This document shows positions 1 through 20,000 of a stretch of 64,000 bases of DNA, one piece after another. The position numbers were made by a program, and so were the translations under genes. Each line of letters opens with the position of its first letter. The first letter of the stretch is position 1. The notes beneath the pieces are model-generated. The model saw only the letters and a list, made by a program, of their open reading frames with translations, made no database searches and was not told where the DNA came from. This DNA is from a virus: IMG/VR virus record IMGVR_UViG_3300020477_001012, positions 64,001 to 128,000 of that record, one strand, 5' to 3'.

Positions 1-2054
1 TAATCAAGTCTGCCAATGACTTAATTTCTACAAACAATCCCAATTACCAGTATGTGGCAGCCAGACTGTTAAATATGCAGTTGCGTAAAGAGGTGTGGGG
101 AAGCTCTGAACCTACGAATTTCGTTACGTTCGTGGAGAGAACAGTAGACAACGGCATCTATGATTCAGAGTTTTTAGACAGATGGTCTGAAGACGATTTA
201 AAAGAGTTTAGTTCTTATATTAACCACGGTCGGGATGAACTTTTTACTTATGCTGGATTGCAGCAACTTATTGACAAGTACCTAGTTAAAAATAGAAGCA
301 CGGGCAAGATCTATGAGACCCCTCAACTAGCGTACATGTCTATTGCCATGTGTCTGTTCGATACCGTCTCAGACGTAAAGCGGGCGTATGATGGCTATTC
401 TACGTTTAAAATAAATCTTCCAACGCCTATAATGGCTGGAGTGAGAACCTGCATCAAGCAATTTGCATCATGCGTTCTGGTTGACATCGACGACGATCTC
501 GACGGCATCTTTTCTTCTCTCCACGCTGTTGGTAAATATACAGCTAGACGTGCAGGCATTGGTATCAACATTGGCCGCATGCGTCCCATCAATTCCCCAA
601 TTAGGGGCGGGGAAGTTATTCATACGGGCCTCATTCCCTACCTTAAGAATTTTGAGTCTGCCGTCAAATCCACTAGTCAAAACGGACTAAGGGGAGGCTC
701 TGCCACAGTCCACGTTCCTTTTTGGCACTATGAGATTGAAGATGTCATGGTTCTCAAAAACAATGCGGGCACCGATGATAATAGGGTTCGCAAGCTGGAC
801 TACTCAGTTCAGTTTTGTAAATTATTCTACGAAAGATTAATCAAGAATCAAGACGTGACCCTATTTAGCCCACACGAAGCAGAGGGTTTGTATGAAGCGT
901 TCGGTAACAACAAATCCTTTGAGAAGCTGTACGAAAAATACGAGAATGCCAGATCTCTCAAGTTCAAGAAAAAGGTTCCTGCTCGAAAACTCGCAGAGAT
1001 TTTTGCAAGGGAGCGACTGGAGACTGGGCGTATATACTCCATGAATATTGACACAGCCAACGAAAACGGCTCGTGGGACGTACCTGTATATATGTCCAAC
1101 CTGTGCCAAGAGATCATTCACCCGACTGTACCCATTAAATCTATTGATGATCCAGATGGAGAAATTGGTATTTGTATCCTTTCAGCGTTGAACCTGCTGG
1201 AACTCAATAGCGAGAAAGATATAGCCGACTCTTGCCAGACCATTGTGAAGTCTTTGGAATCTGTCATAGATTACCAGTCTTACCCAGTCCTTGCTGGAGA
1301 AAACTTTACCAAAAATCGCAGATCTTTAGGTGTGGGGGTAACAAATCTAGCTGGATTCTTGGCGAAAAACAAGCTCGGATATGGCGATCAAGAAGCGTTG
1401 GAGTTGGTTCACGAAACCATGGAGCAAATCCAATGGAACCTCCTTAATGCTTCTTGCAGCTTGGCAGAAGAAAAAGGCCCATGCGCAAAGTTTGGTGACA
1501 CAAAATATTCCAAGGGGCTTCTGCCGATAGACTGGTACAAGAAAGAGGTGGACGAATTAGTCAAACCCAAGTACAACATGGACTGGGAAGGTCTGCGCAA
1601 AAGAATAAAAAAATTCGGATTGCGCCACTCCACAATGTCGGCTGTGATGCCCTGTGAGTCCTCTAGTGTCATCCAGAACAGCACTAATGGTATTGAGCCA
1701 GTCAGAAGCCTACTTTCATATAAAAAGGCTAAGAATGGGGTTCTAAAGCAATTAGTCCCGAACTACCATATGAGAAAAAATTATTATACTTTGGCTTGGG
1801 AAATCACCGACAATAAGGATATAATGAATATGGCAGCAGTGATTCAGAAGTTTGTAGATATGAGTATGAGCACAAACTTATACTACAATTATGATCACTA
1901 CGAGAATGGAAATATTCCACTAAGCCAATTAATTAAAGATCAGGTTTATGGATACAAATACGGACTCAAGAACTTTTATTACGCCAACACCCCAGATGGA
2001 GATGGCGACCTTGAGAAGGAAATGAATTGTGAATCGGGAGCATGTGCTATATAG
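1..2054 (+). CDS. nrdA: Ribonucleotide reductase class Ia alpha subunit (5' end lies outside the window)
   Basis: Frame is open upstream of the listed start (IKSANDLISTNNPNYQYVAARL, ATP-cone end). Motifs PTPIMAG, QFASCVL, SNLCQEI (thiyl Cys), MPCESSS, GLKNFYY and C-terminal CESGAC. No intein seen. Confidence 0.97.
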   Translation, partial: IKSANDLISTNNPNYQYVAARLLNMQLRKEVWGSSEPTNFVTFVERTVDNGIYDSEFLDRWSEDDLKEFSSYINHGRDELFTYAGLQQLIDKYLVKNRSTGKIYETPQLAYMSIAMCLFDTVSDVKRAYDGYSTFKINLPTPIMAGVRTCIKQFASCVLVDIDDDLDGIFSSLHAVGKYTARRAGIGINIGRMRPINSPIRGGEVIHTGLIPYLKNFESAVKSTSQNGLRGGSATVHVPFWHYEIEDVMVLKNNAGTDDNRVRKLDYSVQFCKLFYERLIKNQDVTLFSPHEAEGLYEAFGNNKSFEKLYEKYENARSLKFKKKVPARKLAEIFARERLETGRIYSMNIDTANENGSWDVPVYMSNLCQEIIHPTVPIKSIDDPDGEIGICILSALNLLELNSEKDIADSCQTIVKSLESVIDYQSYPVLAGENFTKNRRSLGVGVTNLAGFLAKNKLGYGDQEALELVHETMEQIQWNLLNASCSLAEEKGPCAKFGDTKYSKGLLPIDWYKKEVDELVKPKYNMDWEGLRKRIKKFGLRHSTMSAVMPCESSSVIQNSTNGIEPVRSLLSYKKAKNGVLKQLVPNYHMRKNYYTLAWEITDNKDIMNMAAVIQKFVDMSMSTNLYYNYDHYENGNIPLSQLIKDQVYGYKYGLKNFYYANTPDGDGDLEKEMNCESGACAI

Positions 2055-2077: not shown

Positions 2078-3634
2078 ATGTTCAAAGACTATGCGGGACG
2101 GAATTTTATAGACGGTGTATGGTGCGGCGATTCGGATCAGATGTTTTCTAAGTTAGATCCATGTACCGGGGAGGAGATGGCTAGGTTTCCCCAATCTACA
2201 GAGTGTGAGGTTAGAGATGCCTGCGCCTTGGCGAGAGAAACATTTAACGACTGGAAAAAACTCAGCCGAGTCAACAGGGCGGAATATCTATATAAAGTCG
2301 CTAAAATTATAGAGAGAGATCTAGAACAGTTTGCCACAGCTATTTCTGTAGAAACCGGAAAGAACTATAACGAATCAATAGCCGAGGTCAACGAGGCCCT
2401 TCATATGGCCCAATATGCCTTTGGCTCTGGCAGAACCCCACAAGGAGAATGCATTGCGTCCGAAATTCCTGAAAAAGATGCCTATATGCTGCGAAAGCCC
2501 AAAGGTGTTATTGCTGTCATTAGTCCTTGGAATTTTCCTCTTGCCATTGGTGCTTTTTGGTGCGCTGCTCCGGCTTTGGTGGAAGGAAACACTGTTATTA
2601 TCAAGCCGAGTGAAGATGCACCCCTCAGCACTGAACTGGCCGTAAAGGCATACGCAGAGGCAGGTATCCCAGCGGGGGTTCTTCAGCTATTGCACGGCGA
2701 TGGAAATGTTGGAGATATGCTTGCTAAGAATGGAGAGGTGGATCACATTTGTTTTACCGGCAGCGCAAAAGTAGGACAACATATCAGAAGGATCTGTGCG
2801 GATAGCTGGCACAAAACGTGCTCCTGCGAACTAGGTAGTAAGTCTGCGGTTATCGTATTTAATGACGCAAACTTTGATCTTGCGGTGTCGGCATGTATTG
2901 CAAGCTCCTTTAAATTATCAGGACAGAGATGTGTATCTGCCGGAAGAATCTTAGTGCAAAGAGGTATATACGACGAGTTTGCAGACAGCTTTGCTAGTTA
3001 TGCGTCTCAAGTTTCTCCCGGGAAACCGTTTAATGATCAAGCCACCGAACTTAAAGAAAGCAGAAACTTTTTTGCGTTTGGAGAGGGTAGATCTAGCTGG
3101 GTAACCCCAGTCGCAAATGAATTGGCGTACATGGGTCCGCTCATCAATCAGCAGCAGATTAATACGGTAATGGGATATAACCACATGGTGCTTGAAGATC
3201 CACAGGCCGAAGTTTTAGTAAAGCCTGCATACTCAGGTCCGGGTTATTTTGTAACCCCGCTCGTATACAAGACTGAGTGGAGAGATGTTTCCTATTTAAA
3301 GAACGAGGTATTTGGTCCCCATGTTTCTATTATTCCCTTTGATAATGTTGATGATGCTGTCCGCATTTATAACGATACTGCTTATGGACTGGCCGTTGGA
3401 GTGATCACCGAAGACTTCAAAAAAGCGAGGATTTGTCGTGACAACTGTGATTACGGTATGTGCTATTGGAATGGTGGTTCTATCGCTGCTGAGTCTCACA
3501 TGGCTTTTGGAGGAGTGAAAAAGTCAGGGAACGGATTCCCGTCAGCGGCCCGAACGTTCAGGGCGGTTACTCATGAAGTGTCATGGACTGTCAACCATGA
3601 TGACACTCTTAGCTTTCCACAGGGGATGAAATAA
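2078..3634 (+). CDS. NAD-dependent aldehyde dehydrogenase (AldH / aminoadipate-semialdehyde dehydrogenase-like)
   Basis: ISPWNFP, KPSEDAP, FTGS, catalytic Glu in CELGSK, catalytic Cys in GQRCVS, EVFGP, FGGVKKSG. AGGAG RBS upstream. Confidence 0.93.
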   Translation: MFKDYAGRNFIDGVWCGDSDQMFSKLDPCTGEEMARFPQSTECEVRDACALARETFNDWKKLSRVNRAEYLYKVAKIIERDLEQFATAISVETGKNYNESIAEVNEALHMAQYAFGSGRTPQGECIASEIPEKDAYMLRKPKGVIAVISPWNFPLAIGAFWCAAPALVEGNTVIIKPSEDAPLSTELAVKAYAEAGIPAGVLQLLHGDGNVGDMLAKNGEVDHICFTGSAKVGQHIRRICADSWHKTCSCELGSKSAVIVFNDANFDLAVSACIASSFKLSGQRCVSAGRILVQRGIYDEFADSFASYASQVSPGKPFNDQATELKESRNFFAFGEGRSSWVTPVANELAYMGPLINQQQINTVMGYNHMVLEDPQAEVLVKPAYSGPGYFVTPLVYKTEWRDVSYLKNEVFGPHVSIIPFDNVDDAVRIYNDTAYGLAVGVITEDFKKARICRDNCDYGMCYWNGGSIAAESHMAFGGVKKSGNGFPSAARTFRAVTHEVSWTVNHDDTLSFPQGMK

Positions 3635-3795
3635 TGGGGATGTGGGCTTTAGTTTTAGCCTTTCTATTATATCTTGTTGTGTCTATAGACTTATTCTCTA
3701 AAAAGAACTATGCTTTATCACTCGTGTTTCTATGTTATGCAGTATCCAACCTTGCATACATCTGGGTCGGTGATTATTTAAGAGGGCCAAAATAG
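3634..3795 (+). CDS. Small two-helix membrane protein, 53 aa (not in the ORF track)
   Basis: ATG overlaps the ALDH stop (TAATG) and its TAG overlaps the next GTG start. Translation MGMWALVLAFLLYLVVSIDLFSKKNYALSLVFLCYAVSNLAYIWVGDYLRGPK fills the gap exactly. Confidence 0.75.
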   Translation: MGMWALVLAFLLYLVVSIDLFSKKNYALSLVFLCYAVSNLAYIWVGDYLRGPK

Positions 3796-4640
3796 TGGGC
3801 AATAATGGTCTGCGGAATATAGGTGTTGTGGGCAATGGCTTTGTCGGCTCAGCCGTAGCGTTTGGATTTTCGCATCTCACAGGGTGCGAGGCAAACGTCA
3901 GGGTGTACGACAAAGATAAATCAAGGTCGTCAGCCGAGCTATCAGATGTTGTTAACGAGTCTGACTTTATCTTCGTGTCGGTTCCAACCCCCGCCAACAG
4001 CGATGGCTCTGTCAATATAGATATAGTAGAAGATGTCTTTGCTGAAATGAATGAGCTTAACACAAGCAAGAACAACATATTCCTACTTCGGTCCACCGTG
4101 GTCCCGGGGACCACAAGAAAGATTCAAGAAGACTGCCCAAACTTGAATATAGTATTTAATCCCGAATTTCTCACCGAGAAGTCGGCCAAGTTTGACTTCA
4201 TAAACCCGTCTCGGTTTATACTAGGTGGCTTTCAGAAGGTGCTGGACTACCATACAATTAAAGCGGGAGACCTTTTAAAATGGAGATTCGGCCCCAGCGT
4301 TCCTATTATAAAGACTGATTACGAAACGGCAGAATTTATTAAGTATATGAATAATTGCTATTTTGCCACGAAAGTGTCTTTTCTAAACGAGATGAATCAG
4401 ATTGCTAGCGAATGTGGGGTCAATTGGGATGCGGCTATAGACGGCTTTTCAAGAGACGGCAGGGTTGGTCACTCACACCTGTCAGTTCCCGGTCCCGATG
4501 GTAAGTATGGTTTTGGAGGTAGCTGTTTCCCAAAGGACATACAGGCTATGATTAGCTTTGCTAAAACATTGGGAGTCGAACCCACCATGTTGGAGGGTGC
4601 GTGGAGCAAGAACTTAGAAGTTAGACCAAGCGATACATAA
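3795..4640 (+). CDS. ugd: UDP-glucose/GDP-mannose dehydrogenase family, short form lacking the C-terminal domain
   Basis: GNGFVG Rossmann motif, SVPTP, RSTVVPGT, NPEFL, KYMNN..ATKVSFLNE, catalytic GFGGSCFPKD. Confidence 0.85.
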   Translation: MGNNGLRNIGVVGNGFVGSAVAFGFSHLTGCEANVRVYDKDKSRSSAELSDVVNESDFIFVSVPTPANSDGSVNIDIVEDVFAEMNELNTSKNNIFLLRSTVVPGTTRKIQEDCPNLNIVFNPEFLTEKSAKFDFINPSRFILGGFQKVLDYHTIKAGDLLKWRFGPSVPIIKTDYETAEFIKYMNNCYFATKVSFLNEMNQIASECGVNWDAAIDGFSRDGRVGHSHLSVPGPDGKYGFGGSCFPKDIQAMISFAKTLGVEPTMLEGAWSKNLEVRPSDT

Positions 4641-4650
4641 GGATGATCAT

Positions 4651-5739
4651 ATGAGAGCAGCAGTAATTGGAACAGGTAGAATGGGTAGCGCCATAGCTTG
4701 GGCGATAGACAAATTATCAGATTTAGATGTGTTAACGCTGGTTGATTCCAACTCGGATAGTCTTAACCGGTGCGCAGATAACGTGGAACGTTCACCACTT
4801 AAAAGCTGTCTTCTATCTGAATGGACACCTGATTATTCACCGCTAAATAATAATGACATAGTGGTCTCTGCAATGCCCTACCATCAAAATTGGAAGGTTG
4901 CCAAATTTTGCATAGACCATAACGTGCCTTACTGCGATCTTGGTGGGCATGTAGAAACCAGCAAGAAGATTAACGAGTACGCTACATCTAATAACCAAGT
5001 AGTAGCAACAGATTTGGGTCTAGCCCCCGGGTGGGTAAACATCCTAGCGGAACGTGGATATCAATCGTATAATGCCAATAGCAAAGTCGCCCGGACCCCA
5101 ACATTAATAGAGATGATGGTTGGAGGACTTCCTATTCATCCTAGTAACTATTTAAAATATAGCTGTACGTGGTCATATGATGGGTTAGTCAATGAATATA
5201 AAGACCAATGTGAAGTTCTGGTTGATGGAGACATCAAGCTAGTTGACGGGATGTCTGGACTCACTCACATACAAACAGGCTTAGGTGACATGGAGGCATT
5301 TTATACAAGTGGAGGGGCTTCTCATACCATCAAGACTATGCTACAAAGAGGTGTTAAGAACTGCCACTACAAAACAATTCGGTATCAAGGACATTGCGAG
5401 GCCATAAAGTTTTTAATGAGCGAATGCGGACTAAGCGACGATGAGCTTGTCAAACTATTGCAAAATGCGTGCCCCCCAGCGGACGACTTAGTGATCATTA
5501 AAGCTAGAGTGGGAATTGGACACGCAAGTGATTGGAATACAGAAAAAGTTATATATCGGAACGATAAATTTTCAGCGATGCAGATGGCCACAGCGTTCCC
5601 GGTGGCTGTTGTAGCTACTATTATGGGAAACAAGGATCGAGATGAGCTAGGCACAGAACCATTGTCTTACAAAGACATTGCCTGCTCCTACGAAGAGTTT
5701 GAAAGTAGCCTAGAATATCTCTTTAGGGAAGTAAAATGA
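4651..5739 (+). CDS. Saccharopine dehydrogenase family, lysine 6-dehydrogenase-like
   Basis: GTGRMG, YCDLGG, DLGLAPG, VGGLP, TWSYDGLVNEY, EAFYTSGG, YKTIRYQGH, SAMQMATAFP. Confidence 0.85.
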   Translation: MRAAVIGTGRMGSAIAWAIDKLSDLDVLTLVDSNSDSLNRCADNVERSPLKSCLLSEWTPDYSPLNNNDIVVSAMPYHQNWKVAKFCIDHNVPYCDLGGHVETSKKINEYATSNNQVVATDLGLAPGWVNILAERGYQSYNANSKVARTPTLIEMMVGGLPIHPSNYLKYSCTWSYDGLVNEYKDQCEVLVDGDIKLVDGMSGLTHIQTGLGDMEAFYTSGGASHTIKTMLQRGVKNCHYKTIRYQGHCEAIKFLMSECGLSDDELVKLLQNACPPADDLVIIKARVGIGHASDWNTEKVIYRNDKFSAMQMATAFPVAVVATIMGNKDRDELGTEPLSYKDIACSYEEFESSLEYLFREVK

Positions 5740-6806
5740 AATCCATATTCAATATGAAGAATGTAGACCCAATGAATCAACCTCTTTTTCTGGGGAAGGA
5801 TCTCGGTGTTCAAAGATACGACATCGTTAAATACCCAGTGTTTAAAAATCTCGACAGTAGACAGATGATGAACTTCTGGAGGCCAGAAGAAATAGAACTT
5901 AAAAAGGATAGGGGCGACTTTAAGGAGATGTCTGATAACGAGAAATTTATTTTTACATCTAACCTTAAATATCAAACGATGCTCGACAGTGTCATCTGCC
6001 GTGGCGTACCCACCCTATTGGAATATGTGACGAACACAGAGCTGGAAGCCTGTATGATGACTTGGCAGTTCTTTGAAAAGATACATAGCCAGAGTTACTC
6101 ATATATTATTCAAAACGTTTATGCCGACAGCAAGGAAGTGTTTGGGGGCATCTATGAAGATAAAGAGATTATGAAAAGAGCAAAAAGTGCCATTGAGGAT
6201 TATAATAACCTAATGGGTATGGCTTGTGATAGCACAAAGATAGCTGATTTAAAGAAGCAAATCTATATGACAATTATGAGTATAAATATTCTTGAGGCCG
6301 TTCGATTTTATGTTAGCTTTGTTTGTTCATTTGCGTTTGCGGAAAACAAAAAAATGGTTGGCAATGCAGATATTGTCAAGCTTATTAAGCGTGACGAGGC
6401 TTTACATTTATCTAATACCCAAGAAATACTTAAGATCTTACACAAGGAAGAAGATGAGGGTTTTGTTAAAACAGCAAAGCAGTGTGAAGAGGCTGCTGTG
6501 GAAATGTTTGAACATGCTGCCAACGAGGAGAAAGAATGGGCATCCTACCTCTTTAAAGACGGTTCTATCATTGGGCTAAACGAAACTGTGCTACACCAAT
6601 ACATTGACTGGTTATGTATGACAAGACGCAAGACCATCGGCCTGCCTTACAGCACGGGAAAAAACCCAATCGCTGGTTGGACTGAACCTTGGATGAATAG
6701 TGAAGCCGTGCAGGTTGCGCCTCAAGAGCATGAGATCACTAGCTATAAAATTGGTGCTAGCACTAATGACTTGGAAGACGTGGACTTCGGAGATTTAAAA
6801 CTATGA
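5736..6806 (+). CDS. nrdB: Ribonucleotide reductase class Ia beta subunit
   Basis: FWRPEEI, QTMLDS, EKIHSQSY (radical Tyr), LEAVRFYVSF, RDEALH, VQVAPQE. Confidence 0.97.
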   Translation: MKSIFNMKNVDPMNQPLFLGKDLGVQRYDIVKYPVFKNLDSRQMMNFWRPEEIELKKDRGDFKEMSDNEKFIFTSNLKYQTMLDSVICRGVPTLLEYVTNTELEACMMTWQFFEKIHSQSYSYIIQNVYADSKEVFGGIYEDKEIMKRAKSAIEDYNNLMGMACDSTKIADLKKQIYMTIMSINILEAVRFYVSFVCSFAFAENKKMVGNADIVKLIKRDEALHLSNTQEILKILHKEEDEGFVKTAKQCEEAAVEMFEHAANEEKEWASYLFKDGSIIGLNETVLHQYIDWLCMTRRKTIGLPYSTGKNPIAGWTEPWMNSEAVQVAPQEHEITSYKIGASTNDLEDVDFGDLKL

Positions 6807-17796: not shown

Positions 17797-18756
17797 ATGA
17801 AGGAGTTTAACATGGATCGCAGCGGAAAACGATTTTTGACGGGAATCTTAACGGCGGCTCTCATTTTTTCTAGTATGACTGTGTCCTACGCCCAGAATGT
17901 GGCCCAGCATCTTCAAGATGTAAGCGTGACCATTAAGTCAGGATTTGCTGAAGGCTCTGGAGTACTGATAACAAGAGAGCTAACAGCAAAAGACAACGAG
18001 AAGATCAAGGTTAATTTTGTCGTGACATGCGCCCACGTTATCGACAATCTCCGATCTACGCGCCAAGTCATTGAAAACGGCAGGCCCAAAACTGTTGTCG
18101 AGTTCAAAGACGCTCAAATTGTTAAAGAGTTGGTGGAGAATGGCAGAAAAGTGGGCGAACTCAAAATGGACGCCAAAGTTATTATGTACTCTGATGCGGA
18201 AGAGGGAGAAGACCTTGCCCTCCTCATGGTGCGGAAAAGAGGTTTTGTTGCCGCAAATACAGAGTTCTACTTAGAAGGCAAGCCTGTTGAAATTGGTACT
18301 GACCTATTTCATGTGGGAAGCCTACTTGGCCAGTCCGGGGCAAATTCGATGACGGCGGGCATAATGTCTCAAGTTGGTAGAGTTCTAAACTTAGGCTCTG
18401 GTGGAGGCACCGTCTTCGACCAAACTACAGTAACCGCATTCCCCGGATCTTCCGGTGGTGGTGTATTTCTCACAGACGGTAAGTATGTGGGAATGCTCGT
18501 GCGCGGAGCTGGCGAAACATTCAACTTGATTGTACCTGTACGCCGCATGCAATCTTGGGTCGAAGCCCGTGGCGCTGGGTGGGTGCTTGATCCCAAATCA
18601 AAAATGCCCACTTTAGAAGAAATTAAAAAAATAGACGTGGAAAATGATTCCGGCTCAAGTAAAACACAAAGCAAGGATGCCAAGTCGTTTCCACACCTTA
18701 TTAGAATCACTAAACCTACAGAAAACAAATCTGAAAAGATTGAGGAGAAGAAGTAG
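17797..18756 (+). CDS. Exported trypsin-like serine protease
   Basis: Sec signal ending SYA|Q; triad TCAHV, EDLALL, PGSSGGG; no PDZ domain. Confidence 0.88.
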   Translation: MKEFNMDRSGKRFLTGILTAALIFSSMTVSYAQNVAQHLQDVSVTIKSGFAEGSGVLITRELTAKDNEKIKVNFVVTCAHVIDNLRSTRQVIENGRPKTVVEFKDAQIVKELVENGRKVGELKMDAKVIMYSDAEEGEDLALLMVRKRGFVAANTEFYLEGKPVEIGTDLFHVGSLLGQSGANSMTAGIMSQVGRVLNLGSGGGTVFDQTTVTAFPGSSGGGVFLTDGKYVGMLVRGAGETFNLIVPVRRMQSWVEARGAGWVLDPKSKMPTLEEIKKIDVENDSGSSKTQSKDAKSFPHLIRITKPTENKSEKIEEKK

Positions 18757-18758
18757 TC

Positions 18759-20000
18759 ATGTTGCAGGTTAATTTTAACAGACGAGATTTTATCAAAACT
18801 GGCGCTCTTGGCGGCTTAAGCTATATGCCGTTCTCTGACGTGGCTTTTGCTCAAGAGGCCATAGTTCCAAACAACAAGTCTGTCGTGTGGCTGTGGCTTG
18901 GGGGTGGTCCTACCCAGTTTGAGACTTTCCACGCCCCCACAGACGCCGTACCAGACCCGTACAAGCCCGTTGCTGGTATGGTGCGTCATCCTAACGGGTT
19001 GGCTTTTGGTGGCTTGTTCAAGGAGCTAATCAAGCGTGGGGACCATCTCACAGCAGTTAATTCTTTTTCTCACGGGGATTCTTCACACCGTCAAGCTACC
19101 CATTGGATGATGACGGGACACCGTAACCCCAAACGAGAAAATACTGCGAACTCTGAGTTCCCGGGTCACGGGGCTATTGTTTCTTCGGTGTTTGGTTCCA
19201 ACGATCCTTCTAATGGTATGCCAGCTTACGTTAAGCAGGGTAAAATTGAAGGTGAGCAGCCTACGTTCTTGGGTGGGGCGCATAAGCCGTTTGACCCCTC
19301 TAACAAAGAGAACTTAGCCCCCCGCATTGCGCTTGCGAGATTTCAGAATCGTAAAGATCTCTTAAGTGCATTTGATCAGGGCAGGGTTGTGTCCAGTGAG
19401 GCCGAGTCTTTTGTACGTATTGGGGATCAGGCATATAACGTTATCTTGGGAAATGCCAAGAATGCGTTTGACCTTGAAAAGGAAAAGCCTGCAACCAGAG
19501 AAAGATATGGCAAGGGTGGCATTGGGGATCAAATGCTGCTTGCTAGACGACTGGCTCAGTTTGGCACCAAGTTTATTACTGTTCACTATGGTGGGTGGGA
19601 TATGCATGGCAATATCGCCAATGCCCTCAAGGGCAGAGTTCCTCCCCTCGACAAGGCCATTTCCGCCTTTGTGGATGATATCTATGATAGCGGGCTGTCT
19701 GACGACGTGCTTTTGGTGGTGACAGGTGAATTTGGCAGGACACGCCTGAATGGAAATGCTGGTAGGGATCACTGGCCATCTATCACCCCCATGCTTCTGT
19801 CTGGCGGAAGCTATGATCACGGCAGGGTTATTGGCAAATCGGATAAGGCGTATTATCCCACTGAAGCCAAGGTTATGCCTATTGACTTGGCGGCCACGAT
19901 GTTCGACCATTTTGGGATTGACCCCAAGATACAGAAGGTTGACCAAGCGGGCAGACCAAGATACCTCTTGGATGGAGATGGTAAACCAATCCTGTCATGA
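18759..20000 (+). CDS. DUF1501 family protein with Tat signal
   Basis: NRRDFIK twin-arginine, WLGGGPTQFETF, LLARRL..G..FI, GWDMH, LDKAISAFVDD, TGEFGRT, GRDHW, ATMFDHFGID. Confidence 0.9.
   Translation: MLQVNFNRRDFIKTGALGGLSYMPFSDVAFAQEAIVPNNKSVVWLWLGGGPTQFETFHAPTDAVPDPYKPVAGMVRHPNGLAFGGLFKELIKRGDHLTAVNSFSHGDSSHRQATHWMMTGHRNPKRENTANSEFPGHGAIVSSVFGSNDPSNGMPAYVKQGKIEGEQPTFLGGAHKPFDPSNKENLAPRIALARFQNRKDLLSAFDQGRVVSSEAESFVRIGDQAYNVILGNAKNAFDLEKEKPATRERYGKGGIGDQMLLARRLAQFGTKFITVHYGGWDMHGNIANALKGRVPPLDKAISAFVDDIYDSGLSDDVLLVVTGEFGRTRLNGNAGRDHWPSITPMLLSGGSYDHGRVIGKSDKAYYPTEAKVMPIDLAATMFDHFGIDPKIQKVDQAGRPRYLLDGDGKPILS

What the first reader, a model, noticed from the sequence alone, without database searches (positions are those of the whole stretch)
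2078..5739. Lysine-6-dehydrogenase-like plus aldehyde dehydrogenase pair inserted between nrdA and nrdB
Seen: four genes (ALDH, small membrane protein, short Ugd, saccharopine-DH family) separate nrdA from nrdB, and the last overlaps nrdB (ATGA). Known: LysDH plus aminoadipate-semialdehyde dehydrogenase converts lysine to 2-aminoadipate and yields two NAD(P)H; the same superfamily includes carboxy(nor)spermidine dehydrogenases. Inference: a phage amino-acid catabolic pathway co-expressed with RNR, perhaps supplying reducing power for dNTP synthesis, or making a polyamine or osmolyte. This is not a commonly described phage auxiliary pathway.
Basis: partly seen in the sequence, partly recalled or inferred. 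Interest (0 to 1): 0.72.

Follow-up and report, generated by a model that had tools for sequence, protein, structure and literature searches.

The report
Phage lysine-to-aminoadipate enzyme pair
A large uncultured marine phage carries, between its two ribonucleotide reductase genes, a conserved pair of enzymes that most likely oxidise the amino acid lysine to 2-aminoadipate, a metabolic add-on that I did not find described for phages.

Summary
Four tightly packed co-directional genes lie between nrdA and nrdB: an ALDH, a 53-aa membrane protein, a short Ugd, and a saccharopine-DH-family protein. The last overlaps nrdB by ATGA.

The core inference, lysine to 2-aminoadipate, is well supported in silico.
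- **Saccharopine-DH-family protein.** Its closest solved relative by sequence and by fold is P. horikoshii L-lysine dehydrogenase. It keeps the Y-x-T-x-R residues that bind lysine's alpha-amino and carboxylate groups.
- **ALDH.** It is a divergent clade, not an ALDH7 equivalog. It still keeps the ALDH7A1 Glu121 and Arg301 equivalents and an ALDH7-type C-terminal tail.
- **Bacterial parallel.** In Bacillales and Acidobacteriota, an ALDH carrying these same features sits directly upstream of LysDH.
- **Co-occurrence.** In 67 of 67 distinct related phage loci with enough flanking DNA, this ALDH is accompanied by the LysDH-like gene (54), a lysine 6-aminotransferase-like gene (8) or both (5).

The short Ugd is variable and elsewhere sits in phage glycan clusters, so it is probably not part of this pathway. 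A polyamine role is not supported. Both enzymes look NAD-type, which weakens the idea that they supply NADPH for RNR.

The physiological role is inferred only: nitrogen and energy mobilisation is my preferred guess. The scan noted a similar ALDH-HAD-LysDH-like operon in another genome.

The parts
3..2054 (+). nrdA, class Ia ribonucleotide reductase alpha subunit (5' end outside the window); upstream flank of the insertion
   Evidence: NF006578 scores 847 bits against a cut-off of 813; PF02867 and PF00317 also match
2078..3634 (+). Aldehyde dehydrogenase, 518 aa; proposed 2-aminoadipate-6-semialdehyde / P6C dehydrogenase of a divergent, phage-specific clade
   Evidence: PF00171 matches at E 5e-125. 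The catalytic residues N152, E251 and C285 are present. E106 and R284 are the equivalents of ALDH7A1 E121 and R301. It has an ALDH7-type C-terminal tail. In 67 of 67 loci it is accompanied by a LysDH-like or LAT-like gene.
3634..3795 (+). 53-aa protein with two hydrophobic segments, function unknown; in 13 related loci it lies directly upstream of the LysDH-like gene
   Evidence: Translation; no Pfam or NCBIfam hit; tblastn positions
3795..4640 (+). Short Ugd-family dehydrogenase, 281 aa, with the NAD-binding and central domains and the catalytic Cys but no UDP-binding domain; probably a glycan-pathway gene rather than part of the lysine pair
   Evidence: PF03721 and PF00984 only; TIGR03026 scores 175 against a cut-off of 190. 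The GGSCFPKD Cys aligns to the Ugd catalytic Cys. There are more than 7,900 homologues of about 283 aa. In the two other contexts read, it lies at the end of a glycan cluster.
4651..5739 (+). Saccharopine-dehydrogenase-family protein, 362 aa; proposed NAD-dependent L-lysine 6-dehydrogenase (epsilon-deaminating)
   Evidence: PF03435 and PF16653 match. The best PDB match is 3abi LysDH, by sequence at 1e-21 and by fold at E 5e-26 with TM 0.77-0.84. The AF2 model has pLDDT 91.9. G7-x-G9-x-x-G12, D32, Y240, T242 and R244 are invariant in the family.
5736..6806 (+). nrdB, class Ia ribonucleotide reductase beta subunit; its start overlaps the LysDH-like stop (ATGA)
   Evidence: NF006576 scores 382 bits against a cut-off of 346; sequence read

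Best explanation
The conserved core of the finding is a two-enzyme lysine catabolic module carried by a lineage of large uncultured marine phages.

Step 1 (inferred from family, fold and conserved substrate-binding residues): the 362-aa saccharopine-DH-family protein acts as an NAD+-dependent L-lysine 6-dehydrogenase. It oxidatively deaminates the epsilon-amine of L-lysine, releasing NH4+ and NADH. The product is 2-aminoadipate-6-semialdehyde, which cyclises to delta1-piperideine-6-carboxylate (P6C).

Step 2 (inferred from conserved residues, the C-terminal tail and gene partnership): the 518-aa ALDH oxidises the open-chain semialdehyde to L-2-aminoadipate with a second NAD(P)+.

The genes are packed without terminators among early DNA and nucleotide metabolism genes, here between nrdA and nrdB. 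They are therefore probably expressed while the phage replicates its DNA (inferred).

My preferred physiological reading is a weak inference: the module mobilises nitrogen (ammonium) and reducing equivalents or carbon from the host's lysine pool during infection. Related phages add or substitute a lysine 6-aminotransferase-like gene, an arginine dihydrolase-like gene and an ornithine cyclodeaminase-like gene, which fits a wider theme of basic amino acid catabolism.

The short Ugd and the 53-aa membrane protein are not needed for this chemistry. The confidence given is for the biochemical assignment, not for the physiological role.
For: **LysDH-like protein**
- The best solved relative is P. 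horikoshii L-lysine dehydrogenase 3abi, by sequence (80.8 bits, E 1e-21). AASS scores 42 bits and saccharopine reductase 26 bits; CASDH and HSS are absent at E<1.
- By fold, on an AF2 model of pLDDT 91.9, 3abi matches at E 5e-26 with TM 0.77-0.84. AASS/SR come next at 1e-19 to 1e-16, CASDH at about 1e-17 and HSS at 1e-10.
- The residues that PMC6697735 assigns to binding lysine's alpha-NH3+ and alpha-COO- in G. stearothermophilus LysEDH are Y238, T240 and R242. They align with window Y240, T242 and R244. All three are invariant in 22 diverse phage homologues.
- A Natribacillus orthologue carries exactly the published numbering, which anchors the mapping.
- GxGxxG plus the invariant D32 indicate NAD.

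**ALDH**
- The catalytic Cys, Glu and Asn are present.
- The equivalents of ALDH7A1 Glu121 and Arg301, the ion pairs to the substrate's amino and carboxylate groups (PMC11362210, PMC13162559), are E106 and R284. Both are invariant in the phage family.
- The C-terminal tail TVNHDDTLSFPQGMK matches the tail of a bona fide P6CDH equivalog (L220, 778 bits against a cut-off of 730; TINWGTELPLAQGIKF).
- With the last 64 residues as query, only ALDH7-type PDB chains align to the very end: Pcd 6rtr, 6dbb, 10fm, antiquitin 2jg7 and human AASADH 4x0t.
- 20 other ALDH paralogues from three genomes lack this tail.

**Partnership**
- Of 84 phage loci with the LysDH-like gene, 68 have this ALDH within 10 kb.
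- Of 67 distinct ALDH loci with at least 6 kb downstream, 54 have the LysDH-like gene, 8 have a LAT-like aminotransferase and 5 have both. None has neither.
- The aminotransferase's best family by far is TIGR03251, L-lysine 6-transaminase, at 455-468 bits. The next family scores 227.
- In about 24 Bacillales genomes and 2 others, an ALDH lies directly upstream of the cellular LysDH homologue. In each of three such genomes, that ALDH is the paralogue most similar to the phage ALDH: 272 against 229, 284 against 198 and 245 against 169 bits. The best PDB chain scores 233 bits.
- An AU test does not reject a clade of phage ALDHs, LysDH-adjacent ALDHs and P6CDH (p 0.40).

**Operon-like packing**.
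Against: - No enzyme was assayed, and specificity within both families cannot be read from sequence with certainty.
- The ALDH is far below the NCBIfam P6CDH cut-off (252 against 730 bits). Several unrelated ALDH models score slightly higher.
- Trees place the phage ALDH clade on a long stem (about 1.6), unresolved relative to the P6CDH and LysDH-adjacent group.
- ALDH7A1 Thr303 is Val in the phage ALDH.
- LysEDH His181 is Glu in the phage protein and V172/F173 are T/W. The same holds in P. horikoshii LysDH.
- The Glu plus Arg/Lys pair also occurs in P5C dehydrogenases, so a C5 substrate (ornithine or glutamate semialdehyde) is not excluded.
- The LysEDH residue roles come from a homology model, not a crystal complex (PMC6697735).
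- Frequent neighbours are unexplained by this pathway: VOC/glyoxalase-like in 61 of 80 loci, HAD-like in 31 and AdoMetDC-like in 12-17.
- The locus samples contain close relatives, so the co-occurrence counts are not independent events.
- The host and the fate of 2-aminoadipate are unknown.
Confidence: 0.65

Rival explanations
1. The same two-step logic (omega-amine -> aldehyde -> acid) operates on a different omega-amino acid. Candidates are L-ornithine -> glutamate semialdehyde/P5C -> glutamate, or a non-proteinogenic or D-amino acid.
For: The Glu plus basic-residue pair before the catalytic Cys is shared with P5C dehydrogenases (PMC13162559). In Acidobacteriota a P5CDH lies between the ALDH and the LysDH homologue. 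Related phages carry arginine dihydrolase-like and OCD-like genes that make or use ornithine.
Against: The closest characterised and solved relatives of the first enzyme are lysine-specific LysDHs (PMC6697735). The aminotransferase that substitutes for it in relatives scores 455-468 bits with the lysine 6-transaminase model. It scores only 148-178 bits with the ornithine aminotransferase models. The ALDH tail is ALDH7/Pcd-like and is absent from the P5CDH paralogues.
Confidence: 0.12
2. The two genes are independent auxiliary genes that merely travel together. The ALDH, with the VOC/glyoxalase-like gene, would detoxify reactive aldehydes such as methylglyoxal or lactaldehyde, or act as a non-phosphorylating glyceraldehyde-3-P dehydrogenase. 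The LysDH-like enzyme would feed P6C to the host's reductase to make pipecolate, an osmolyte.
For: A VOC gene lies directly upstream of the ALDH in 61 of 80 loci. In this genome and in L011 the VOC gene instead pairs with a GAPDH-like gene. GapN chains are among the ALDH's better PDB hits. A class I aldolase lies in the module in 7 loci.
Against: Detoxification does not explain why the ALDH always comes with a LysDH-like or LAT-like gene (67 of 67). It also does not explain the invariant E106, R284 and ALDH7-type tail. The GapN similarity is no better than the similarity to many other ALDH families.
Confidence: 0.1
3. The SDH-family protein is a polyamine enzyme: a carboxy(nor)spermidine or carboxyaminopropylagmatine dehydrogenase, or a homospermidine synthase. 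It would work with the AdoMetDC-like gene seen next to it in some relatives.
For: These enzymes belong to the same Pfam family, PF16653 (PMC10599626). An AdoMetDC-like gene lies directly upstream in 12-17 related loci. Phage-encoded polyamine enzymes are known (PMC9992855).
Against: CASDH and HSS chains are not detected by sequence at E<1. By fold they rank below LysDH and saccharopine reductases. The protein is about 40-110 residues shorter than those enzymes. It has the NAD-type Asp32, whereas CASDH/CAPADH prefer NADPH (PMC10599626). The lysine-binding Y/T/R motif is kept. None of the 20 neighbour clusters annotated out of the top 30 is a carboxyspermidine decarboxylase. The window's own genome has no AdoMetDC-like gene.
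Confidence: 0.04
4. All four genes form one pathway. The short Ugd, a four-electron alcohol-to-acid dehydrogenase lacking a nucleotide-binding domain, would act on a lysine-derived or sugar-linked intermediate. An example would be a glycan substituent made from 2-aminoadipate.
For: The short Ugd recurs next to the lysine module in 22 of 80 ALDH loci and in all 13 LAT loci.
Against: The short Ugd is absent from most loci with the pair. In the two other contexts read, it follows an SDR epimerase at the end of a glycan cluster with no ALDH or LysDH nearby. In LAT loci it is followed by glycosyltransferases, so it may simply mark the border of the next module.
Confidence: 0.05

Closest known systems
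L-lysine 6-dehydrogenase (EC 1.4.1.18): P. horikoshii PH1688 (PDB 3abi) and G. stearothermophilus LysEDH
   Same: Same two-domain PF03435 plus PF16653 architecture and a similar length (about 350-385 aa). It is the best sequence and fold match. Both have an NAD-type Rossmann motif and the Y-x-T-x-R substrate motif. The T-W pair in the hydrophobic wall matches PH1688.
   Different: Identity is only 22-33%. The phage proteins form their own clade, split from 26 cellular homologues by a fully supported branch. They lack an insertion of about 14 residues after the motif region and have a different C-terminus. His181 of LysEDH is Glu.
ALDH7-type 2-aminoadipate semialdehyde / P6C dehydrogenases (human ALDH7A1, bacterial Pcd/AmaB; NCBIfam NF050084)
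   Same: The catalytic Cys, Glu and Asn are shared. So are the Glu121 and Arg301 equivalents, the Phe168 and Trp175 equivalents, the x-A-E anchor loop and the C-terminal L-x-x-x-Q-G-[IM]-K tail. Both are partnered with an enzyme that makes AASA from lysine.
   Different: The phage ALDH scores 252 bits against the equivalog cut-off of 730. Thr303 is Val. The clade has a long stem branch and is not resolved as sister to ALDH7. Some members, including the window's, carry a variable insertion of about 29 alignment columns (about window residues 320-347).
lat + pcd route to alpha-aminoadipate (lysine 6-aminotransferase plus P6C dehydrogenase) of actinomycetes and Flavobacterium (from my own knowledge)
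   Same: Sister phages carry exactly this combination: a LAT-like aminotransferase next to the same ALDH.
   Different: The window uses a dehydrogenase, not an aminotransferase, for the first step. It would therefore release free ammonium and NADH rather than making glutamate.
ALDH-LysDH gene pair of Ureibacillus, Lysinibacillus and some Acidobacteriota
   Same: Same gene order, with the ALDH directly upstream of LysDH. The ALDH has the R-C motif, the Glu and a related C-terminal tail.
   Different: Identity to the phage proteins is about 30-35%. As far as I know, the cellular pair is itself uncharacterised as an operon.
Phage auxiliary metabolic genes in general, including phage polyamine enzymes (PMC9992855)
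   Same: Host-like metabolic enzymes placed among phage early or nucleotide-metabolism genes.
   Different: The held literature has no report of phage-encoded lysine catabolism.

Membership tests
L-lysine 6-dehydrogenase branch of the saccharopine dehydrogenase family (PF16653) | Two-domain architecture: an N-terminal NAD(P)-binding domain (PF03435) plus the Sacchrp_dh_C domain | tested here: met
   PF16653 at 4e-22 and PF03435 at 2e-10; the AF2 model has pLDDT 91.9
L-lysine 6-dehydrogenase branch of the saccharopine dehydrogenase family (PF16653) | Closer to characterised LysDH than to saccharopine reductase, CASDH/CANSDH or HSS | tested here: met
   By phmmer against PDB, 3abi scores 80.8 bits, AASS 42 and SR 26, with no CASDH or HSS. 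Foldseek gives 3abi 5e-26, against about 1e-19 to 1e-16 for SR, about 1e-17 for CASDH and 1e-10 for HSS. No tree with characterised outgroups was built.
L-lysine 6-dehydrogenase branch of the saccharopine dehydrogenase family (PF16653) | Residues assigned to binding lysine's alpha-amino and alpha-carboxylate groups (LysEDH H181, Y238, T240, R242) | tested here: inconclusive
   Y240, T242 and R244 are conserved and invariant. H181 is Glu, as in P. horikoshii LysDH and most cellular homologues. The roles come from a homology model (PMC6697735).
L-lysine 6-dehydrogenase branch of the saccharopine dehydrogenase family (PF16653) | NAD+ dependence (GxGxxG plus an acidic residue at the end of beta-2) | tested here: met
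   G7, G9, G12 and D32 are invariant. This is a sequence signature only.
L-lysine 6-dehydrogenase branch of the saccharopine dehydrogenase family (PF16653) | Oxidative deamination of the epsilon-amine of L-lysine | not testable with these tools
   Needs an enzyme assay
ALDH7-type P6C / 2-aminoadipate semialdehyde dehydrogenase (NCBIfam NF050084) | Score above the curated equivalog cut-off | tested here: not met
   252 bits against a cut-off of 730, so it is not filed as a member of this equivalog family
ALDH7-type P6C / 2-aminoadipate semialdehyde dehydrogenase (NCBIfam NF050084) | Catalytic Cys302, general base Glu and oxyanion Asn | tested here: met
   C285, E251 and N152 are invariant
ALDH7-type P6C / 2-aminoadipate semialdehyde dehydrogenase (NCBIfam NF050084) | Substrate ion-pair residues Glu121 and Arg301; Thr303 | tested here: inconclusive
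   E106 and R284 are present and invariant, but Thr303 is Val. The residue roles come from PMC11362210 and PMC13162559.
ALDH7-type P6C / 2-aminoadipate semialdehyde dehydrogenase (NCBIfam NF050084) | ALDH7-type C-terminal extension | tested here: met
   The tail aligns to the L220 P6CDH equivalog and to 6rtr, 6dbb, 10fm, 2jg7 and 4x0t up to the last residues. It is absent from 20 other paralogues. That this tail helps form the active site is from my own memory of ALDH7A1 structural work and was not checked here.
ALDH7-type P6C / 2-aminoadipate semialdehyde dehydrogenase (NCBIfam NF050084) | Phylogenetic placement with ALDH7 / LysDH-adjacent ALDHs | tested here: inconclusive
   Unresolved in the quick ML trees. 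The AU test does not reject the joint clade (p 0.40).
Carboxy(nor)spermidine dehydrogenase / homospermidine synthase (polyamine enzymes of PF16653) | Sequence and fold closest to CASDH/CANSDH/CAPADH or HSS | tested here: not met
Carboxy(nor)spermidine dehydrogenase / homospermidine synthase (polyamine enzymes of PF16653) | Adjacent carboxy(nor)spermidine decarboxylase partner | not tested
   No dedicated search was made. Of the 30 commonest neighbour clusters, the 20 that were annotated are not of this kind.
UDP-glucose/GDP-mannose 6-dehydrogenase (for the short Ugd, 3795-4640) | N-terminal NAD-binding domain and central domain with the catalytic Cys | tested here: met
   PF03721 and PF00984 match; the GGSCFPKD Cys aligns to Ugd GGYCLPKD
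UDP-glucose/GDP-mannose 6-dehydrogenase (for the short Ugd, 3795-4640) | C-terminal UDP-binding domain, and a score above the TIGR03026 cut-off | tested here: not met
   The protein ends about 35 residues after the catalytic Cys. TIGR03026 scores 174.9 against a cut-off of 189.8 and covers profile positions 60-294 of 413. Homologues are uniformly about 283 aa.

The most novel reading that the evidence does not exclude
A widespread lineage of large marine phages encodes a modular toolkit for catabolising basic amino acids. Lysine would be handled by LysDH or LAT plus a dedicated non-ALDH7 aminoadipate-semialdehyde dehydrogenase. Arginine and ornithine would be handled by an arginine dihydrolase-like and an ornithine cyclodeaminase-like enzyme. 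The toolkit would strip nitrogen, as ammonium or glutamate, and reducing equivalents from the host's lysine and arginine pools to fuel phage nucleotide synthesis. That would be a new class of nitrogen-scavenging auxiliary metabolic genes, expressed together with ribonucleotide reductase.
Probability: 0.3. Interest if true: 0.75.

Novelty: new member of a known kind. Interest (0 to 1): 0.6.

Why it matters
If the assignment holds, lysine catabolism joins the list of host pathways that marine phages carry and rewire.

The module is not a one-off. The LysDH-like protein has about 1,000 homologous clusters. All 11 distinct contexts read, and all 6 top MAG hits, look like phage DNA.

The module would change how infected cells use lysine. 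It would release ammonium and 2-aminoadipate, which bears on nitrogen flow and on the dissolved organic matter released at lysis.

Two further points are of enzymological interest.
- A clade of ALDHs outside ALDH7 appears to have the same substrate-recognition features, in phages and next to LysDH in Bacillales and Acidobacteriota.
- The phage proteins are a compact, highly diverged clade of epsilon-deaminating amine dehydrogenases. This scaffold is already used to engineer amine dehydrogenases (PMC6697735).

The complementary LysDH-or-LAT pattern gives a directly testable prediction.

Tried and rejected
- **Public phage records.** Megablast of the first 8 kb found nothing. tblastn of the LysDH-like protein gave one weak hit in a 636-kb uncultured phage. 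The ALDH gave one 50% hit in a 595-kb uncultured phage, and otherwise generic hits of about 30%. The split DnaE N-terminal half (542 aa) has no close isolate, so no cultured relative or host could be named.
- **Single-protein scan of genome contigs.** It found no relative. The alignment-based scan was needed. Its three best MAG hits (SAR202, Pseudomonadales, Vicinamibacteraceae) carry phage genes around the match and look like binned phage contigs, so I did not use them for host inference.
- **NCBIfam for the LysDH-like protein.** No family at all.
- **P6CDH equivalog in 121 Bacillales genomes.** None found. One was obtained from a Legionellales MAG instead.
- **41-residue tail query against PDB.** Too short, no hits. 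The 64-residue query worked.
- **Careful ML tree of ALDHs.** It did not finish in the time allowed, so only quick trees are reported.
- **Literature.** Searches for phage or AMG reports of saccharopine or lysine dehydrogenase, or of lysine degradation, found nothing relevant. I also did not find an open paper describing the role of the ALDH7A1 C-terminus.
- **Rejected readings.** Polyamine enzyme, and the four genes as a single pathway; see the rival explanations.
- **Not done.** I sent no complex-prediction job, because I make no claim that the two enzymes bind each other.

Full report
**1. What is there**

The window is bases 64,001-128,000 of a 173,842-bp IMG/VR virus record that CheckV rates complete.

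At the stated coordinates lies an uninterrupted run of co-directional ORFs:
- nrdA, 3-2054
- an aldehyde dehydrogenase, 2078-3634, 518 aa
- a 53-aa ORF, 3634-3795
- a 281-aa Ugd-family protein, 3795-4640
- a 362-aa saccharopine-dehydrogenase-family protein, 4651-5739
- nrdB, 5736-6806

MazG and PhoH follow.

Pfam and NCBIfam confirm all the family assignments. The junctions are TAATG, TAGTG, an 10-nt spacer with an AAGGA, and ATGA. Terminator-like sites are fewer than chance. The 53-aa product has two hydrophobic segments.

**2. What kind of phage**

The rest of the window encodes the following:
- RecA, DnaB, primase, a GMP-reductase/IMPDH-like protein and a dNMP kinase
- a PD-(D/E)XK nuclease and a Trypsin_2/DUF1501 pair
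- UDP-galactopyranose mutase, a split DnaE and many GT1 glycosyltransferases

No cultured phage is close. Relatives are plentiful in IMG/VR and in ocean metagenome assemblies, on contigs of up to 178 kb.

**3. The pair co-occurs, and the ALDH is never alone**

I ran tblastn with a panel of proteins over 84 viral loci that hold the SDH-family gene. This ALDH was found within 10 kb in 68 of them. Several of the rest are cut off upstream.

I then started from the ALDH and fetched 80 further loci. After removing duplicates, I kept the 67 loci with at least 6 kb downstream. Of these, 54 carry the SDH-family gene, 8 carry a class-III aminotransferase instead and 5 carry both. None has neither.

The aminotransferase's best NCBIfam model by a factor of two is L-lysine 6-transaminase, TIGR03251. 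It scores 455-468 bits against a cut-off of 520.8. The next family scores 227 bits.

LysDH and LAT are the two known ways of turning lysine into 2-aminoadipate semialdehyde/P6C. Their interchange next to one and the same ALDH is the strongest single argument for the pathway and its substrate. These loci include close relatives, so the counts are not independent events.

**4. The SDH-family protein is on the LysDH branch**

- Against all PDB sequences, the best match is P. horikoshii L-lysine dehydrogenase 3abi (E 1e-21).
- The saccharopine-reductase-type enzymes follow. CASDH and HSS chains are not detected.
- An AlphaFold model built with 22 homologues has pLDDT 91.9.
- Foldseek ranks 3abi first (E 5e-26, TM 0.77-0.84). 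AASS/SR, CASDH and HSS rank lower.
- Cellular homologues of about 30-33% identity occur in Ureibacillus, Lysinibacillus, Natribacillus, Acidobacteriota, Ignavibacteriota, Zixibacteria and Thermoplasmatota.
- The Natribacillus protein carries V130, V172, F173, H181, Y238, T240 and R242 at exactly the positions published for G. stearothermophilus LysEDH (PMC6697735).
- In the alignment these map to window L124, T173, W174, E182, Y240, T242 and R244.
- Y, T and R are assigned to the alpha-amino and alpha-carboxylate groups of lysine. All three are invariant across 22 diverse phage homologues, as are GxGxxG and Asp32.
- E182 and the T-W pair match P. horikoshii LysDH.
- In a FastTree, 19 phage proteins are separated from 26 cellular ones by one fully supported branch. 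The gene is therefore an old phage lineage gene, not a recent pick-up.

**5. The ALDH has aminoadipate-semialdehyde features without being an ALDH7 equivalog**

- No NCBIfam model reaches its cut-off. The P6CDH model gives 252 of the 730 bits needed.
- The catalytic Cys, Glu and Asn are present.
- I aligned the ALDH with a bona fide P6CDH, L220, which scores 778 bits and is over the cut-off.
- The phage ALDH keeps the equivalents of ALDH7A1 Glu121, Phe168, Trp175, Arg301 and Cys302. Thr303 is Val.
- Glu121 and Arg301 pair with the substrate's amino and carboxylate groups (PMC11362210, PMC13162559). Their equivalents E106 and R284 are invariant in the phage family.
- The phage ALDH ends in TVNHDDTLSFPQGMK. 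The P6CDH ends in TINWGTELPLAQGIKF.., and the LysDH-adjacent ALDHs end in YVDYSGKLQRAQID... Twenty other ALDH paralogues from three genomes have no such tail.
- With the last 64 residues as query, the only PDB chains that align to the very end are ALDH7-type: Pcd 6rtr, 6dbb, 10fm, antiquitin 2jg7 and human AASADH 4x0t.
- From memory, not checked here, this tail helps close the ALDH7A1 active site.

**6. A cellular counterpart of the pair**

In about 24 Bacillales genomes and two others, an ALDH sits directly upstream of the LysDH homologue. In each of three such genomes this ALDH is the paralogue most similar to the phage ALDH, among the 5-12 ALDH matches of each genome: 272 against 229, 284 against 198 and 245 against 169 bits. 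It also scores above the best PDB chain, at 233 bits.

In quick ML trees the LysDH-adjacent ALDHs form a clade. They join the P6CDH with SH-aLRT 87. The phage clade sits on a long stem and is unresolved beside them. An AU test does not reject uniting the three groups (p 0.40). The phylogeny is therefore compatible with common ancestry but is not proof of it.

**7. What does not belong, or is unexplained**

*The short Ugd.* It keeps the catalytic Cys but lacks the UDP-binding domain. It belongs to a very large marine family of about 283-aa proteins that are 66-73% identical to it. In the two other contexts read, it closes phage glycan clusters right after an SDR epimerase. It lies near the lysine pair in only 11 of 84 and 22 of 80 loci. 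In the LAT loci it is followed by glycosyltransferases. I therefore read it as a glycan-pathway gene lying at a module border.

*The 53-aa membrane protein.* It lies directly upstream of the LysDH-like gene in 13 loci. These include distant ones, with 46-50% identity of the LysDH-like protein. Its role is unknown.

*Other frequent neighbours.*
- A VOC/glyoxalase-like gene lies directly upstream of the ALDH in 61 of 80 loci.
- A small HAD-like gene occurs in 31 loci.
- An AdoMetDC-like gene lies directly upstream of the LysDH-like gene in 12-17 loci.
- In the window's own genome, HAD, VOC and a GAPDH-like gene lie together about 18 kb upstream. That genome has no LAT-like, arginine dihydrolase-like or OCD-like gene, and no AdoMetDC-like gene.

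The two-step pathway explains none of these.

**8. Mechanism and role**

The chemistry I commit to, at about 0.65, is two steps:
- L-lysine + NAD+ -> P6C/AASA + NH4+ + NADH
- AASA + NAD(P)+ -> L-2-aminoadipate + NAD(P)H

Both enzymes carry NAD-type signatures:
- Asp32 in the LysDH-like protein
- Glu179 in the ALDH, in the K-P-S-E motif. It aligns with the K-P-A-E motif of an ALDH paralogue. I recall that motif's Glu as Glu195 of ALDH2-type enzymes.

The position between nrdA and nrdB holds only for the closest relatives. Elsewhere the module sits among other replication and nucleotide genes.

Sister phages add other genes:
- a LAT-like aminotransferase
- an arginine dihydrolase/DDAH-like enzyme, which scores 218 bits and is below its cut-off
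- an OCD/mu-crystallin enzyme
- in two loci, an Ldh_2 enzyme

All of these fit catabolism of basic amino acids with release of nitrogen. I therefore favour mobilisation of nitrogen and energy from lysine during DNA synthesis. This is inference only.

**9. Novelty**

The enzymes belong to known families and the chemistry is textbook. A phage-borne lysine catabolic module was not found in the held literature. The survey of virus-encoded polyamine enzymes mentions LysDH only as a relative of HSS.

I class the finding as a new member of a known kind, auxiliary metabolic genes. A first-stage note of this scan recorded an ALDH-HAD-LysDH-like operon in another genome. That matches the gene order I see in 31 loci.

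Noticed in passing
window 3795-4640; L193:7001-7864; L195:7001-7885: The short Ugd (about 283 aa, catalytic Cys kept, no UDP-binding domain) belongs to a very large marine metagenomic family. There are more than 7,900 hits, mostly 66-73% identical. In the two other contexts read, it is the last gene of a phage glycan cluster, overlapping an SDR epimerase gene. How a Ugd works without its nucleotide-binding domain is open.
   Followed up: partly
L292:11463-13459; L285:12243-13451; also L283, L287, L291, L293, L296-L298, L301, L079, L083, L092, L279, L282: Sister phages carry an arginine dihydrolase/DDAH-like gene (NF052232, 218 bits, below its cut-off) and a lysine 6-transaminase-like gene between the ALDH and the short Ugd. 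Five of them also have OCD_Mu_crystall and the LysDH-like gene. Together this looks like a wider set of genes for catabolising basic amino acids.
   Followed up: partly
own genome C1:46494-48564 (about 15.4-17.5 kb before the window start): A HAD-like, a VOC/glyoxalase-like and a GAPDH-like gene lie together (the last is 78% identical to the one in L011). In most relatives the VOC gene instead sits directly upstream of the ALDH.
   Followed up: partly
L009:7337-7687; L090:13443-13799 and about 15 other loci: An AdoMetDC-like (PF02675) gene of 116-118 aa lies directly upstream of the LysDH-like gene. It could be a true SpeD, or a neofunctionalised pyruvoyl decarboxylase.
   Followed up: no
L008:5620-7858; L012:5600-7833: A Volactin/MreB-like actin homologue (408-417 aa) and a class I fructose-bisphosphate aldolase-family gene lie between the ALDH and the LysDH-like gene in one sub-lineage. 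Ldh_2, GDPD and OCD genes lie on the opposite strand.
   Followed up: no
window 17797-20000; L009:12183-14365: A Trypsin_2 peptidase plus DUF1501 gene pair is conserved across this phage lineage. A second DUF1501 copy lies at own genome 23386-24642.
   Followed up: no
L095 (VFHP01000009.1, SAR202 MAG, 93.7-kb contig); L093; L094: Contigs binned into bacterial MAGs carry the phage module. In L095 the ALDH is 77% identical, the 53-aa protein 86% and the LysDH-like protein 50-52%. These are probably phage contigs in the bins, or possibly prophages.
   Followed up: no
L287:11479-11844: A 121-aa SET-domain protein is encoded directly after the ALDH in one related phage.
   Followed up: no
window about 3035-3115 (ALDH residues about 320-347): A variable insertion of about 29 alignment columns follows the PGKPF motif. 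It is present in the window's ALDH and in some relatives, and absent in others such as P0293 and P0321. It is probably a surface loop.
   Followed up: no
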